Assembly (NCBI GenBank): GCA_964016885.1
Contig: OZ024741.1
Span: 329,530,001 to 329,594,000, forward strand
Direction of reading: 5' to 3'
Origin: Eledone cirrhosa
Taxonomy: Eukaryota
Length of the DNA: 64,000 bases
Numbering within the stretch: the stretch's first letter is position 1; each line of letters starts with the position of its first letter. The notes below the pieces were generated by a model that saw only the letters and a program-made list of their open reading frames with translations, was not told where the DNA came from and did no database searches. A program made the translations under genes and the position numbers. This document shows positions 192 through 35,605 of the stretch, piece by piece.

Positions 192-240
192 ATATTTTCT
201 GATGAGATCATAATAATGGTTGAAATTCGATTAAGGATAT
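192..240 (+). ncRNA. Degenerate type-I hammerhead ribozyme motif
   Basis: atatttt-CTGATGA-gatcat(aata)atggtt-GAAA-ttcgat-TA-aggatat. Intact CUGAUGA and GAAA boxes, 6-bp stem II, 7-bp stem I with two GU pairs. Stem III looks like a decayed ACTCGAGT palindrome. Confidence 0.6.
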
Positions 241-424
241 CCGTCATTTTTTTTTTTTCAATCTACTATGAAATACGTAAGATTGCCACGTTTACATGAA
301 TGTATTTTTAATATGGATATTTATATACACATTTACGCAGTCTGTGATAACTCTGTACTCTACCTATACAGATGTGAATTTATCATATATTTTGGTTGAT
401 TGATGCAGAAATTGATATACATAC

Positions 425-842
425 GTATATATATATATATATATATATATATATATATATATATATATATATATATATATATATATATATATATGTATAT
501 ATATATATATATATACATATATACATATATATACATATATATACATATATATATATATATATATATATATATATATATATATATATATATATATATATAC
601 ATATATATGCATATATATATATATGTATAATATATATATATATATGTATATATATATATATGTATTTATGTATATATATATATACATATATATGCATATA
701 TATATATATATATATATATATATATATATATATATATATACATATATATGCATATATATATATATGTATAATATATATATATATATATATGTATATATAT
801 ATATGTATTTATGTATATATATATATATATATATATATATAC
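425..842. repeat. (TA)n microsatellite with internally duplicated variant block
   Basis: Direct reading; the catatatatgcatat...tgtataat...gtatttatg block recurs at ~600-670 and ~741-812. Confidence 0.97.
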
Positions 843-967
843 AAAATTTAAATTAAATTAAATTTAAATTAAATTAAATTAAGGGTGTCATGTCAGAGAG
901 ACATGCACTATATCCACTGTAAAATATGCTCCAAGATTCCAATGAATAGATCCGACCATTTTATATT

Positions 968-1257
968 AACTAGAAATTGATTGACATATATATATATATA
1001 AAATAAACATATGAAACAATCACAGTAGAAAGTGTGTAAGCACACGCAGCTATGTGGTAACTAATTAAAGTTTAACTAGAAGTTCAAAAATAGATACCTT
1101 ATGAAGTATCTATAAGGTAACTATTTTTGAAGTTCTAGTTAAACTTTAATTAGTTACCAGATAGCTGCGTGTGCTTACACACTTTTTACAGATTATCCAC
1201 TGTGATTGTTTCATATGTTTATTTTAGATATATATATATGTCAATCAATTTCTAGTT
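968..1257. repeat. Long fold-back inverted repeat (~135-bp arms, ~9-bp loop)
   Basis: 968-1102 is the near-perfect reverse complement of 1112-1257; the right arm carries a short insertion at ~1187-1200. Confidence 0.93.
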
Positions 1258-1869
1258 GATATATATATATATATATATATATATATATATATATATATAT
1301 ATATTTCGTTTCTGAATTCTTATTGGCAACATGACCCTCCCAAAGTATAACAATATATATATATATATATACATGTATATAACATACATATGATACAGTA
1401 ATATAAACACGAAAAAATGCTGTACACTTGCAATATACCCACATAGGCAAAGCTATAATAAATCTGACGTCATGAAAAGTTTTGTTTTTTTTACTATGTC
1501 GTATATACGATTGATGATAATTAAACCTGTATTATTTACGACTGGTCATAAATATTATTAAGAAAGAGGAAAGCAAATTGGAGAAACTAAATGTTTCGGG
1601 TGTTGATGAGAACGGGACAGAACCAGAAGTTAGATTGCCTATGTATAGCCACTGCCTTCGGTCGTTTTTCTTGGTGTTACATTTTATAGTTGTTGTGTTT
1701 ACGCTGGAGGGTCATGTATTAACATAACCACTTTATCGAGTGATTTGTGATTGCTTCAAACAACTCGATTACTACCTGCTATATGGCAGGTACAACTTCA
1801 ATTCATACCTAATATAATTACATATATATAGACATGCATACATACATTCATACATACAGGTTTCTATAT

Positions 1870-2466
1870 AACATATATATGTGTGATATATGTATATTAT
1901 ATATATATATATATATATATATATATATATATATATATGTATATATATATGTATGTATATATGTATATATATATATATATATATATATATGTATATATAT
2001 ATGTATATGTATATATATATATATATATATATATATATATATATATATATATATATATGTATATATATATGTATATGTATATATATATATATATATATAT
2101 ATATATATATGTATATATATATGTATATGTATATATTTATATATATATATATATATATGTATATATATATACATATATGTATATATATATATATATGTAT
2201 ATGTATATATATATATTTATATGTATATATATATATATATATATATGTATATACTGTATATATATATATATATATATATATATGTATATATATATATGTA
2301 TATGTATATATATATATATGTATGTATATATATATATGTATATGTATGTATATATATATATGTATGTATATATATATATGTATATACTGTATATATATAT
2401 ATATATATATATATATATATATATATATATATATATATATATATATATATATATATATATATATAT
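1870..2466. repeat. (TA)n/(TATG) microsatellite
   Basis: Direct reading. Confidence 0.97.
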
Positions 2467-3307
2467 ACTATAGAGTAAAGCATGTCCAGAGAATTATTTG
2501 ATAATATATATACATCATCTCTACTCCCAATCAGCATAATTAACTACACAAAAAACCAATTAGACCAGGCTATAAGAATAAAAGGCATCTATTAAGAAAC
2601 AGTAAATAAATACGCCACAGCGGCGTCTTCACGTCCAACCACTATAGAATATTTACCCAACATTTCAACAGCACGTGGAAATTAATTAAATATACGGGCA
2701 ACCATATATAATTAGGTAAAAATTAATGTTAGAAATGCTTATATACATATCAGGATTAAACACTAAATCCCGACCCTCTGGTTTCGCTCACTTTTGAGAT
2801 ACCTTATTTAAGGTTCATACTCGAGTTTAGAGCTCATCAGGGGATAAACTCACTAGGACATATTATTTTCTGAAGTGGCCCCCGCCAAACACGAATTCAA
2901 AATGGTTGAGAACTGTGACGTGGCAGTAGTCAAGTCAGGAAGAGTGTGATTGGTTGCTTACGGCGACTGGGTTGGTTGCTAGAAAGCGCAGCCCAATATC
3001 GCCCAAATTTTTATCTCAACCTTATGGGAGATTATTAAATATAAGTATTTACACATACACCAATTAAACAAAGTCACATGTATATATGTGTTTTGGCAAC
3101 TTTTCACGATGTGGCTCAATGGAGAATTAATAAATTATATGTGTGTATATATATTATCAAATAATTCTCTGGACATGCTTTACTCTCTATAGTATTTCAC
3201 TCTGATTAATTTATTAATTCTCTATTGAGCCACATCGTGAAAAGTTGCAAAAACACATATATACCTGTGACTTTGTTTAATTGGTGTATGTGTAAATACT
3301 TATATTT
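2465..3307 (-). mobile_element. Non-coding hammerhead-bearing element (Penelope pseudo-LTR / retrozyme-like) with terminal inversion
   Basis: Flanked by (TA)n and contains an intact hammerhead at 2767-2845. 3144-3195 is the reverse complement of 2465-2514, and 3207-3307 is the reverse complement of 3037-3137. Confidence 0.75.
2767..2845 (-). ncRNA. Type-I hammerhead ribozyme, intact core, extended stem II
   Basis: Minus strand: ATCCC-CTGATGA-GCTC...GAGC-GAAA-CC(AGAG)GG-TC^GGGAT. Perfect 5-bp stem I, 4-bp base of stem II with an inner acctta/taaggt hairpin, GUC cleavage triplet. Confidence 0.9.
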
Positions 3308-33745: not shown

Positions 33746-34222
33746 TATATATATATATAAACATATACATATATATATATATATATACACATATATATAT
33801 ATATATACACATATATATATATATATACACATATATATATATATACATATATATATATATACATATATATATATATACACATATATATATACACATATAT
33901 ATATATACATATATATATATACACACATATAGATCTACACATATATATATATATATACATATATATATACACATATATATATACATATATATACACATAT
34001 ATATATACATATATATATATACATATATATATACATATATATATATATACACATATATATATATATATATACATATATATACACATATATATACACATAC
34101 ATATATATACACATATATATATATATATATATATATACACACATATATATATATATATATATATATATATATATATATATACACATATATATATATATAC
34201 ATATATATATACATATATATAT
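33746..34222. repeat. (TA)n/(TACA) microsatellite
   Basis: Direct reading. Confidence 0.95.
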
Positions 34223-34228
34223 AGGGAG

Positions 34229-34962
34229 AGAGAATTAGTACATCTACCAACATATGCGTACAGATGTACACTAATGCTAGCAAATATATAAGTTATGTCA
34301 AAGTACCTAGGTGGTTCTATGTAGGGGGATGCAGAACAATTATATGAAAGACGTAAAATAAGAAAATTTTAAAAATTAAAAATTAACTTACTAAAATTTT
34401 TACTCCAACTAATTAGTTTCTGTAATGGGATAAATATAGTTACACAATATAACTATCGAGAATTCATTACGTGATCAGGGAGTCTATTCACAGCTAAGTT
34501 CCCAGGCAATGCGCGGACACTAGGAACCCATATAAAAATAATAATTCAGTGGATGTAATAAGCTAGCGAGGACTAAATTCCATAGCACTGAAAAAGTTCA
34601 CTGCCTCTGGTCAATGGCAGATTCTAAAGAATCAATCACGTGACACTGAGGTTAGTCAGTTAGGAGTGGGGTGGTATTATGACAAGAGCCTACTACTACT
34701 ACGATGAATTAGCAGTAGATTTGGCAAGTTTGCTCAACAAATAATTTGGAGATAAATATAGAGAATTAGTACATCTACCAACATATGCGTACAGATGTAC
34801 ACTAATGCTAGCAAATATATAAGTTATGTCAAAGTACCTAGGTGGTTCTATGCAGGGTGATGCAGAACAATTATATGAAAGACGTAAAATAAGAAAATTT
34901 TAAAAATTAAAAATTAACTTACTTACTAAAATTTTCACTCCAACTAATTAGTTTCTGTAATG
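34229..34962 (-). mobile_element. Hammerhead-bearing partial tandem repeat (531-bp period; Penelope pLTR / retrozyme-like)
   Basis: 34229-34427 is repeated at 34760-34962; hammerhead motif at 34402-34483. Confidence 0.8.
34402..34483 (-). ncRNA. Type-I hammerhead motif with G8>C core change
   Basis: Minus strand: ACTCC-CTGATCA-cgtaatg...cattaca-GAAAC-TAATTA-GTT^GGAGT. Palindromic stem III ACTAATTAGT, 5-bp stem I, inner atagtta/taactat hairpin. Confidence 0.78.
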
Positions 34963-35138
34963 CTTATATTTAAGTAACAGCCGTACTAAGTGTGGGATAT
35001 GAAATTTCGTTTCATTTTTTCCGTTTATCGTTTTCGGTGCACCCGACCGATTAATCCACTCGATATGCAAATTGGGCTACTCAGCCGTTAATATGCATAA
35101 GGTAAGTATATACGTTCAACAATCTGGCTGGAAGGTAT

Positions 35139-35181
35139 ACATTGCTGTTGATAGCTAATAAGCTTGAAGCTAGTACAGCGT
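35139..35181 (+). ncRNA. Mutated hammerhead (CTGTTGA / GAAGC), probably inactive
   Basis: Paralogous to 35563-35605, with substitutions in both conserved boxes. Confidence 0.7.
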
Positions 35182-35562
35182 TCCTTTGTCAGTGTTGAAC
35201 AAACGAGCAACGATGGTTACTAGACACTATGGCTTAATACGGTATGTTTGTTTACAAACACACCGAGCATTACAATAAATGTTCGGTGAATCCATACGTA
35301 CATATATATATGTGTGTGCATATATGTATATATATATATACATACTACTGTACGTCTGTATGCATATATGTATGTACGTGTACATACTTATATTTAAGTA
35401 ACAGCCGTACTAAGAGTGGGAAATGAAATTTTGTTTCATTTTTTCCGTTTATCGTTTTCGGTGCACCCGGCCGATTAACCCACTCGATATGCAAATTGGG
35501 CTACTCAGTTGTTAATATGCATAACGTAAGTATATATGTTCAACAATCTGGCAGGAAGGTAT

Positions 35563-35605
35563 ACGTTGCTGACGATAGCTAATAAGCTTGAAACTAGTAC
35601 AGCGT
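35563..35605 (+). ncRNA. Minimal type-I hammerhead ribozyme, intact core
   Basis: ACGTTG-CTGACGA-tAGCT(aata)AGCTt-GAAAC-TA-GTA^CAGCGT. Palindromic stem III ACTAGT, 6-bp stem I with one GU pair, GUA triplet, U-U at the base of stem II. Confidence 0.85.

What the first reader, a model, noticed from the sequence alone, without database searches (positions are those of the whole stretch)
192..35605. Six hammerhead motifs in five different non-coding, (TA)n-embedded elements: a candidate ribozyme-retroelement system
Seen: type-I hammerhead folds at 192-240(+), 2767-2845(-), 7472-7581(-), 34402-34483(-), 35139-35181(+) and 35563-35605(+), in different sequence contexts. Most have a tiny palindromic stem III (ACTCGAGT, ACTAATTAGT, ACTAGT), and three have a long branched stem II. 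None lies in a recognisable coding sequence. Established: Penelope-like elements carry minimal type-I hammerheads with palindromic stem III in their pseudo-LTRs and cleave as dimers, and metazoan non-LTR retrozymes are hammerhead tandem repeats that yield circular RNAs. Inference: this genome hosts a diverse, probably unannotated set of PLE-derived or retrozyme elements that accumulate in TA microsatellites.
Basis: partly seen in the sequence, partly recalled or inferred. Interest (0 to 1): 0.85.

Follow-up and report, generated by a model that had tools for sequence, protein, structure and literature searches.

The report
Ribozyme-bearing repeats spread by Penelope retrotransposons
The six hammerhead-ribozyme motifs are real and sit in five families of short, protein-less repeats, four of them very abundant in this animal genome, whose insertion pattern matches its Penelope-like retrotransposons, so they are likely 'retrozymes' copied by those elements' enzymes; cutting and circular RNA are predicted, not shown.

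Summary
All six motifs are present and exceed chance (perfect cores 2 vs 0.01 in shuffles). Only sites 2 and 6 fit the full model; sites 1, 3, 4 and 5 are mutated copies of families whose usual core is intact. They belong to five families (A-E). B-E are ORF-less tandem units of 686, about 835, 535 and 422 nt. Exact core patterns give 1,862, 912, 10,728 and 40,693 genome matches against controls of 1, 1, 0 and 43. Stems covary across subfamilies.

Copies carry the Penelope-like (PLE) insertion signature: fixed 3' ends running into (TA)n and a head-to-head inverted half (30 of 60 loci; RTE LINE 0 of 26). Autonomous Neptune-like and Hydra-like PLEs in the genome share this signature. Sites 4-6 form one D/E composite.

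Not shown: which PLE is the partner, cleavage, or circular RNA. 5' ends do not cluster at the cleavage site. A seventh motif, with a fixed U4A core, lies in a Hydra-like PLE (19,559 copies).

Verdict: new members of the known non-LTR retrozyme class. The scan noted a similar pattern before, on a tRNA-bearing repeat in another genome.

The parts
1..429 (+). Family A, old decayed element (continues about 170 nt left of the window); hammerhead site 1 at 192-240; ends in (TA)n
   Evidence: Relatives 67-85% identical, 110 first-look candidates; two relatives show tandem copies, about 430 nt apart in L111
1317..1356 (+). 3'-end remnant of autonomous Neptune-like PLE family F, ending at its first fixed 3' end
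   Evidence: 100% over 40 nt to the F 3' UTR
2465..3039 (-). Family B unit positions 1-577 of 686; hammerhead site 2 at 2767-2845 (perfect core, closed stem III, 48-nt stem II); 3' end in (TA)n
3040..3137 (-). End of the preceding tandem B unit (589-686)
3145..3307 (+). Inverted 5'-truncated B half (529-686, with the 109-nt tail), head-to-head with the minus-strand copy and ending in (TA)n
7318..7742 (-). 5'-truncated family C copy (unit positions 397-832); hammerhead site 3 at 7472-7581 (C3U in this copy; 83-nt branched stem II; palindromic stem III)
27013..27175 (-). 3' end of autonomous Hydra-like PLE family G with a seventh hammerhead-like motif at 27063-27113; core has A at position 4, family-wide
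34230..34756 (-). Family D full unit (535 nt); hammerhead site 4 at 34402-34483 (G8C in this copy); 3' end in (TA)n
34757..34962 (-). 5'-truncated upstream D unit (330-535), carrying only the 3' half of the hammerhead; its 5' end is joined directly, without TA, to family E
34963..35392 (+). Family E unit 1 (422-nt type); hammerhead site 5 at 35139-35181 (A6U, A15.1G: likely inactive)
35393..35814 (+). Family E unit 2; hammerhead site 6 at 35563-35605 (perfect core, U-U at 10.1/11.1, palindromic stem III); 3' end in (TA)n

Best explanation
The motifs are type-I hammerheads inside five families of protein-less tandem repeat units that are likely non-autonomous passengers (non-LTR retrozymes) of this genome's Penelope-like retrotransposons. 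Shown: ORF-less units, one hammerhead per unit, covarying stems, very high copy number for B-E, fixed 3' ends at TAT-like sites running into (TA)n, and head-to-head inverted halves like those of the coding PLE families F and G. Inferred: a tandem copy is transcribed; the hammerheads (as dimers where stem III is a palindrome, as monomers in B) cut out unit-length RNA that a host ligase may circularise; a PLE RT/GIY-YIG protein nicks (TA)n and primes reverse transcription at internal sites of the RNA, once from each target strand, leaving tandem units, a tail and an inverted 5'-truncated half. My odds: PLE mobilisation about 0.85, functional ribozyme in the master elements about 0.75, circular template about 0.55.
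For: Units read junction to junction: E 422, D 535, B 686, C 832 nt in the copy used, related family H 466. Longest Met-ORF 27-77 aa; no tblastn hit to PLE proteins; GC 0.35-0.42. Genome-wide exact core patterns vs reversed controls: E/H clan 40,693 vs 43, D 10,728 vs 0, C 912 vs 1, B clan 1,862 vs 1. Covariation: E clan 9 of 14 pairs with two-sided change, 0 of 500 shuffles reaching the score (14 related sequences chosen by me, structure taken from site 6); B clan 5 of 14 predicted pairs; D stem II variants visible in the listing. Two preferred 3' ends: E at 422 and 60, D at about 531 and 420, B at 686 and 577; F at 410 and 468; C showed one. These match the two-site 'tail' of PLE reverse transcription (PMC11167929). 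Self head-to-head halves in 30 of 60 E/H/D loci against 0 of 26 loci holding RTE LINE pieces; 69 of 152 F segments and 20 of 55 G 3'-UTR segments have them too. Autonomous PLEs are present: F with RT motifs, CX4CX2C linker and GIY-YIG; G, J, K with the Hydra CxCX5C, RWK or DKT features (criteria from PMC8557442). Circular folds of D, E and H are far more stable than mononucleotide shuffles, B less so.
Against: No autonomous parent was found: B-E show no pLTR-like homology with the F or G 3' UTRs in the visible part, and no sampled copy runs upstream into its own ORF. Junctions with coding PLEs are not above background: 3 E-F junctions among about 51 unexplained F 5' ends, about 1.2 expected from 2.4% local E cover. 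In 60 position-sampled loci the only mixed head-to-head joins were 2 with RTE and 0 with PLEs. 5' ends do not pile up at the cleavage site: 2 of 231 within 3 nt (loci were chosen for long matches, which biases this). A 31-unit H-like array shares variants between non-adjacent units, which points to later DNA-level expansion rather than one rolling-circle pass. In Xenopus only 1 of 9 retrozyme dimers cleaved in vitro (10.64898/2026.07.22.740005), and cleavage was dispensable for PLE insertion in vitro (PMC11167929).
Confidence: 0.8

Rival explanations
1. The elements are only 5'-truncated pseudo-LTR ends of coding PLE families whose full-length copies I did not sample.
For: F and G leave exactly such hammerhead-bearing or tail-only remnants, including two in this window. 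DNA searches score only the top 40 candidates.
Against: Where a copy extends past the unit start it continues into the previous unit of the same family (E 47, D 18, B 9, C 3, H 26 tandem-self junctions), at a constant unit length, with arrays up to 31 units. In F and G the endonuclease end lies about 0.2 and 1.0 kb upstream of the hammerhead and is easily found. The one coding junction for H (L178) is a young H copy set in an older J copy whose own 3' UTR differs.
Confidence: 0.1
2. They are satellites or dead relics spread at DNA level, and the hammerhead no longer functions.
For: Long arrays show later unequal exchange. Four of six window copies carry damaging changes. Family G spread to 19,559 copies with a non-canonical core.
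Against: Dispersed copies on many contigs with fixed 3' ends and inverted heads; compensatory stem changes with an unchanged core across subfamilies only about 62-80% identical; family H copies are 99-100% identical across contigs.
Confidence: 0.05
3. They are SINE-like passengers of the abundant RTE LINEs rather than of PLEs.
For: RTE is the largest annotated repeat class beside them (27 kb of 247 kb), also lies in TA tracts, and both mixed head-to-head joins in the 60-locus sample were with RTE.
Against: RTE pieces never showed a self head-to-head half (0 of 26 loci). The two internal 3' ends and the tandem units are PLE features (PMC11167929; Fig. 2 legend of PMC8557442). No RTE-like 3' end is apparent in the unit sequences (by eye).
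Confidence: 0.04
4. The motifs are chance matches in AT-rich DNA.
For: No Rfam family reaches its gathering score; four sites fold no better than shuffles.
Against: Shuffle null, genome-wide counts against reversed controls, covariation.
Confidence: 0.01

Closest known systems
Non-LTR retrozymes of animals (Cervera & de la Pena 2020, PMC7229834; Li, Clavereau & Pollet 2026 preprint 10.64898/2026.07.22.740005)
   Same: Protein-less, low-GC tandem repeats with one type-I hammerhead per unit; monomers to long arrays; co-occur with autonomous PLEs; tens of thousands of copies (axolotl: up to 120,000).
   Different: Units of B, C and D (535-835 nt) exceed the 150-450 bp of the 2020 paper, though they fall within the 51-972 bp of the 2026 preprint. 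Hammerheads have PLE-type features (palindromic stem III, unpaired or mismatched first position of stem II, long stem II). Insertions carry a PLE tail and inverted head in (TA)n. Unlike in Xenopus, no pLTR homology to the coding PLEs sampled here. Expression and circles untested.
Minimal and palindromic-helix-III hammerheads of metazoan PLE pLTRs (Cervera & De la Pena 2014, PMC4209133)
   Same: Short stem I, long stem II, extra nucleotide at the start of stem II, small palindromic helix III predicted to work as a dimer, many divergent families per genome.
   Different: Here they sit in complete ORF-less units rather than flanking an RT-EN ORF; stem II reaches 48-83 nt; B has a closed stem III.
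Neptune and Hydra clade EN+ PLEs (Craig et al. 2021, PMC8557442) and the Anolis Poseidon element (Frangieh et al. 2024, PMC11167929)
   Same: (TA)n targeting, tandem and inverted 5'-truncated structure, tail between two RT start sites; families F (Neptune-like) and G, J, K (Hydra-like) of this genome fit these clades by motif.
   Different: A-E encode nothing. Tails here are about 60-110 nt rather than 30-40. Every 3' end here lies at a TAT-like site matching the target, whereas the Anolis element starts at a site not homologous to the cut DNA.

Membership tests
Non-LTR retrozyme | Type-I hammerhead in each unit of a tandem repeat | tested here: met
   Cores recur at unit spacing for D (about 535), E (about 422) and C (826-840), H (466); B tandem junctions seen but no two complete hammerheads in tandem among 20 loci; A tandem in L111
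Non-LTR retrozyme | No protein coding capacity | tested here: met
   Longest Met-ORF 27-77 aa on concatenated units; no tblastn hit to four PLE proteins
Non-LTR retrozyme | Low GC (<50%) | tested here: met
   0.35-0.42
Non-LTR retrozyme | Short unit (150-450 bp in PMC7229834; up to 972 bp in the 2026 preprint) | tested here: inconclusive
   E 422 and A about 430 fit the narrow range; D 535, B 686 and C about 835 fit only the wider range
Non-LTR retrozyme | No LTR, PBS or PPT; target-site duplication longer than 4 bp when present | tested here: inconclusive
   No LTR layout in the architectures; PBS and PPT not searched; TSDs cannot be read inside (TA)n
Non-LTR retrozyme | Self-cleavage of the RNA | not testable with these tools
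   Only indirect: conserved core and covariation; no 5'-end excess at the cleavage site
Non-LTR retrozyme | Expression as unit-length linear and circular RNA | not testable with these tools
   No run on record as RNA was available; contigs cannot show ends or circles
Autonomous EN+ PLE | Single ORF with RT and GIY-YIG endonuclease between pLTRs | tested here: not met
   Not met for A-E.
PLE-type mobilisation | Two fixed internal 3' ends (tail) | tested here: met
   E, D, B as for F and G; C showed one end; H mainly one (73) plus a minor one near 464-466; A not tested
PLE-type mobilisation | Inverted 5'-truncated copy head-to-head with the tandem part | tested here: met
   30 of 60 E/H/D loci vs 0 of 26 RTE loci; B 22 of 39 5' ends; C 0 of 28
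PLE-type mobilisation | Insertion into (TA)n microsatellites | tested here: met
   Example genomic 3' flanks printed and the tally; RTE also lies in TA here, so this alone is not specific
PLE deletion derivative | Sequence homology to the pLTR of an autonomous PLE in the same genome | tested here: inconclusive
   Only low-complexity matches to the F and G 3' UTRs in the visible output; most PLE families of the genome were not sampled
Rfam hammerhead families (clan CL00010) | Score at or above the gathering threshold | tested here: not met
   Only site 2, HH9, 21.6 bits vs 52

The most novel reading that the evidence does not exclude
These are long-lived, parent-less retrozyme lineages (over 54,000 intact cores in four clans, still active in family H) that evolve their own hammerheads and hitch-hike on unrelated PLE proteins. 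Mixed insertions such as this window's D/E join would then show that the two halves of the PLE inverted structure are copied from two separate RNA molecules, one per target strand. That would identify PLEs as the mobiliser of animal retrozymes and explain the PLE inverted structure. The same genome carries a 19,559-copy PLE with a U4A hammerhead core, either a new working variant or proof that cleavage is dispensable.
Probability: 0.25. Interest if true: 0.65.

Novelty: new member of a known kind. Interest (0 to 1): 0.42.

Why it matters
The 2020 retrozyme paper left the mobilising enzyme open (LINEs or PLEs), and the 2026 preprint argues for PLEs from co-occurrence and pLTR homology in Xenopus. 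This genome adds a different kind of support: the repeats carry the PLE insertion signature, which the neighbouring RTE LINEs lack. It offers young, near-identical substrates (H, G) and candidate enzymes (F, G) with mapped start sites for a direct test. It also shows that tens of thousands of ribozyme motifs can escape Rfam in one animal genome. My searches listed no paper describing hammerheads or retrozymes in octopus or cephalopod repeats; repeat libraries and most subscription journals were not searchable.

Tried and rejected
Rfam scan: swamped by TA-repeat miRNA matches; only a sub-threshold HH9 hit. Tool repeat finder: uninformative because of microsatellites. Parent hunt: the EN remnants near B and D in L010, L057 and L068 belong to family F and are separated from B and D by (TA)n; the EN-to-H join in L178 is a chimera with older family J; a 22-nt likeness between E and the G 3' UTR (a splice-donor-like word) is not kept in E subfamilies or in H, so rejected. 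Mixed junctions as proof of partner: D/E (window), D/H (L202), E/F (L152, L155, L263) are real but not above background. In one search most 'tandem_E' rows were an artefact of an E-derived head in my F query, removed. An apparent cluster of D 5' ends just after the cleavage site is mostly inversion breakpoints around an AT-rich palindrome. The 5'-end tally is inflated by about 300 microsatellite hits to the internal TA run of E2 and was not used; only 1 entry lay within 3 nt of the cleavage site. Rolling circle from a single monomer: not supported by the 31-unit array. Sequencing runs: no RNA holder listed. Contigs of two other organisms cover the E hammerhead region, but run types are not on record. 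No read data were obtained for family D. Pfam barely sees these RTs (RVT_1 E 0.05 for K; GIY-YIG E 5e-5 and 4e-4 for F; nothing for G), so clade labels rest on motifs, not on a tree.
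Full report
Observation. The six motifs are at the stated places. My type-I descriptor found 2 perfect-core and 5 one-mismatch hits in the window, against 0.01 and 0.35 per shuffled window (100 shuffles). Sites 1 and 5 fail that descriptor. Site 3 carries C3U, site 4 G8C, site 5 A6U and A15.1G, and site 1 has a stem III mismatch. 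Rfam gave only a sub-threshold HH9 match to site 2.

Setting. The genome is 3.0 Gb and the window is full of RTE-type LINE pieces and (TA)n, with a C2H2 zinc-finger ORF. From this I infer an octopus-like cephalopod; RTE-BovB expansion in octopuses is stated in PMC8967140 (passages). The label RTE is from my own knowledge of the ORFs.

Families. Each site belongs to a dispersed repeat. Among the aligned copies core 1 is intact in 19 of 21 (B), 22 of 27 (C), 35 of 41 (D), 42 of 47 (E) and 10 of 12 (A), so the window's defects are private mutations. Reading tandem junctions gave units of 686 (B), 832 in the copy used (C), 535 (D) and 422 nt (E); A is old (67-85% identity) with a spacing of about 430 nt in one locus. 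The units have no ORF above 77 aa and no PLE protein homology. Exact core patterns, with reversed patterns as control, gave 40,693 vs 43 for the E/H clan, 10,728 vs 0 for D, 912 vs 1 for C and 1,862 vs 1 for the B clan. H is a 466-nt relative of E (62% over 294 nt) whose best copies are 99-100% identical across contigs. Stems covary while the core stays fixed: 9 of 14 pairs with two-sided changes in 14 hand-picked E-clan sequences (related sequences, so not a probability) and 5 of 14 in 9 B-clan sequences. The U-U pair opening stem II in E is a described natural variant (PMC3088659, passages). A relaxed scan of 766 kb of fetched loci gave 260 hits in 32 clusters, 21 with two or more members (loci overlap and were chosen for these repeats).

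Insertion anatomy. Copies end at fixed positions that run into (TA)n through a TAT-like overlap: E at 422 and 60, D at about 531 and 420, B at 686 and 577, C at 832 only. Half of the E/H/D insertions have an inverted 5'-truncated half joined head-to-head: 30 of 60 loci, taken by me from the first listed places on contig C1 (39 E/H, 21 D), against 0 of 26 of those loci for RTE pieces. B showed 22 such heads in 39 5' ends and C none in 28. This is the structure described for PLEs (PMC8557442, passages and section 11), and the stretch between two ends corresponds to the 'tail' between two RT start sites shown in vitro (PMC11167929, main text). In the window, B shows the full pattern (2465-3307), and sites 4-6 form one block: (TA)n, D units on the minus strand, a direct join at 34962/34963, two E units on the plus strand, (TA)n.

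Candidate enzymes. The genome holds coding PLEs. F (36,191 first-look candidates) has RT motifs, a CX4CX2C linker, GIY-YIG and a hammerhead in its 3' UTR, so Neptune-like. G, J and K show Hydra features. F and G share the two-end and inverted-head signature, and both left remnants in the window. Clade labels are by motif only.

What failed. I found no ORF-bearing parent for B-E. Mixed joins exist (D/E, D/H, three E/F), but 3 among about 51 F ends is compatible with about 1.2 expected, and the 60-locus sample gave 2 joins with RTE and none with PLEs. They may come from one event with two RNAs or from two successive insertions. 5' ends do not mark the cleavage site (2 of 231), in line with the report that uncleaved RNA is the main PLE template. 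A 31-unit array shows later expansion.

Mechanism. Most likely: tandem transcript, hammerhead processing to unit RNA, possible ligation to a circle (as shown for coral, mussel and axolotl retrozymes; PMC7229834, passages), then PLE-driven target-primed reverse transcription into (TA)n from internal start sites on both strands. The DNA anatomy is shown; every RNA and enzyme step is inferred. Low activity is plausible: PLE minimal hammerheads cleave weakly (PMC4209133, results and discussion) and 8 of 9 Xenopus dimers did not cleave (preprint, abstract to discussion; supplements not seen). The window's own E dimer probably cannot release a monomer, because site 5 is mutated.

Side result. Family G's motif has A at core position 4 in 19,559 exact matches against 206 with C, G or T, in roughly similar numbers in the 100 listed, so the change was fixed in the master element. 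Passages of PMC3088659 mention U4C, and PMC6155905 has no 'U4A'; I could not see the figure that lists variants.

Verdict. Real, abundant and well explained as non-LTR retrozyme-type passengers of PLEs: new members of a known kind, with useful new anatomy. An earlier scan note (e1-7810660) reports a similar pattern for a tRNA-bearing repeat in another genome; I did not check it. Interest 0.42.

Noticed in passing
window 27063-27113 (-); L184:6159-8275: Hydra-like coding PLE family G with a hammerhead-like motif whose core has A at position 4 in 19,559 copies (206 others); many copies are 100% identical over 126 nt, so the family is young.
   Followed up: partly
L178, L192-L224; G000:C1:5738327-5752443: Family H, a 466-nt relative of E with 99-100% identical best copies; one array has 31 hammerheads in tandem, TA at both ends and an inverted head.
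   Followed up: yes
L022:2264(-), L023:13(+), L012:2874(-); L091:2204(+), L088:2818(+): Further hammerhead families with core variants: C at position 4 (three loci) and the U3-A8 pair (a five-hit cluster and a single hit).
   Followed up: no
window 951-1263 and 3356-3562: Two more TA-embedded repeat ends with inverted structure (families I and L), without a hammerhead in the parts seen; L occurs in 17 of 60 sampled loci.
   Followed up: partly
L152 (minus strand, about 2050-2475): Almost exactly one circularly permuted E unit fused upstream of a 5'-truncated F ORF at a 3-nt microhomology; could be a template switch onto a circular RNA (single case).
   Followed up: partly
L158:4498-5823 (+), about 2.2 kb left of the window: A 442-codon stop-free frame that looks like a neuropeptide-type GPCR (label from memory, not searched).
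   Followed up: no
window 51299-52678 (-): A C2H2 zinc-finger ORF of about 410 aa from the first Met.
   Followed up: no
window 40842-41563: A 44-nt tandem repeat array of about 14 copies.
   Followed up: no
L158:401-1816 (-): ORF pieces resembling a Helitron Rep/helicase (label from memory).
   Followed up: no
window 8089-8288: Assembly gap (N run) followed by a long TA/TTA low-complexity tract.
   Followed up: no
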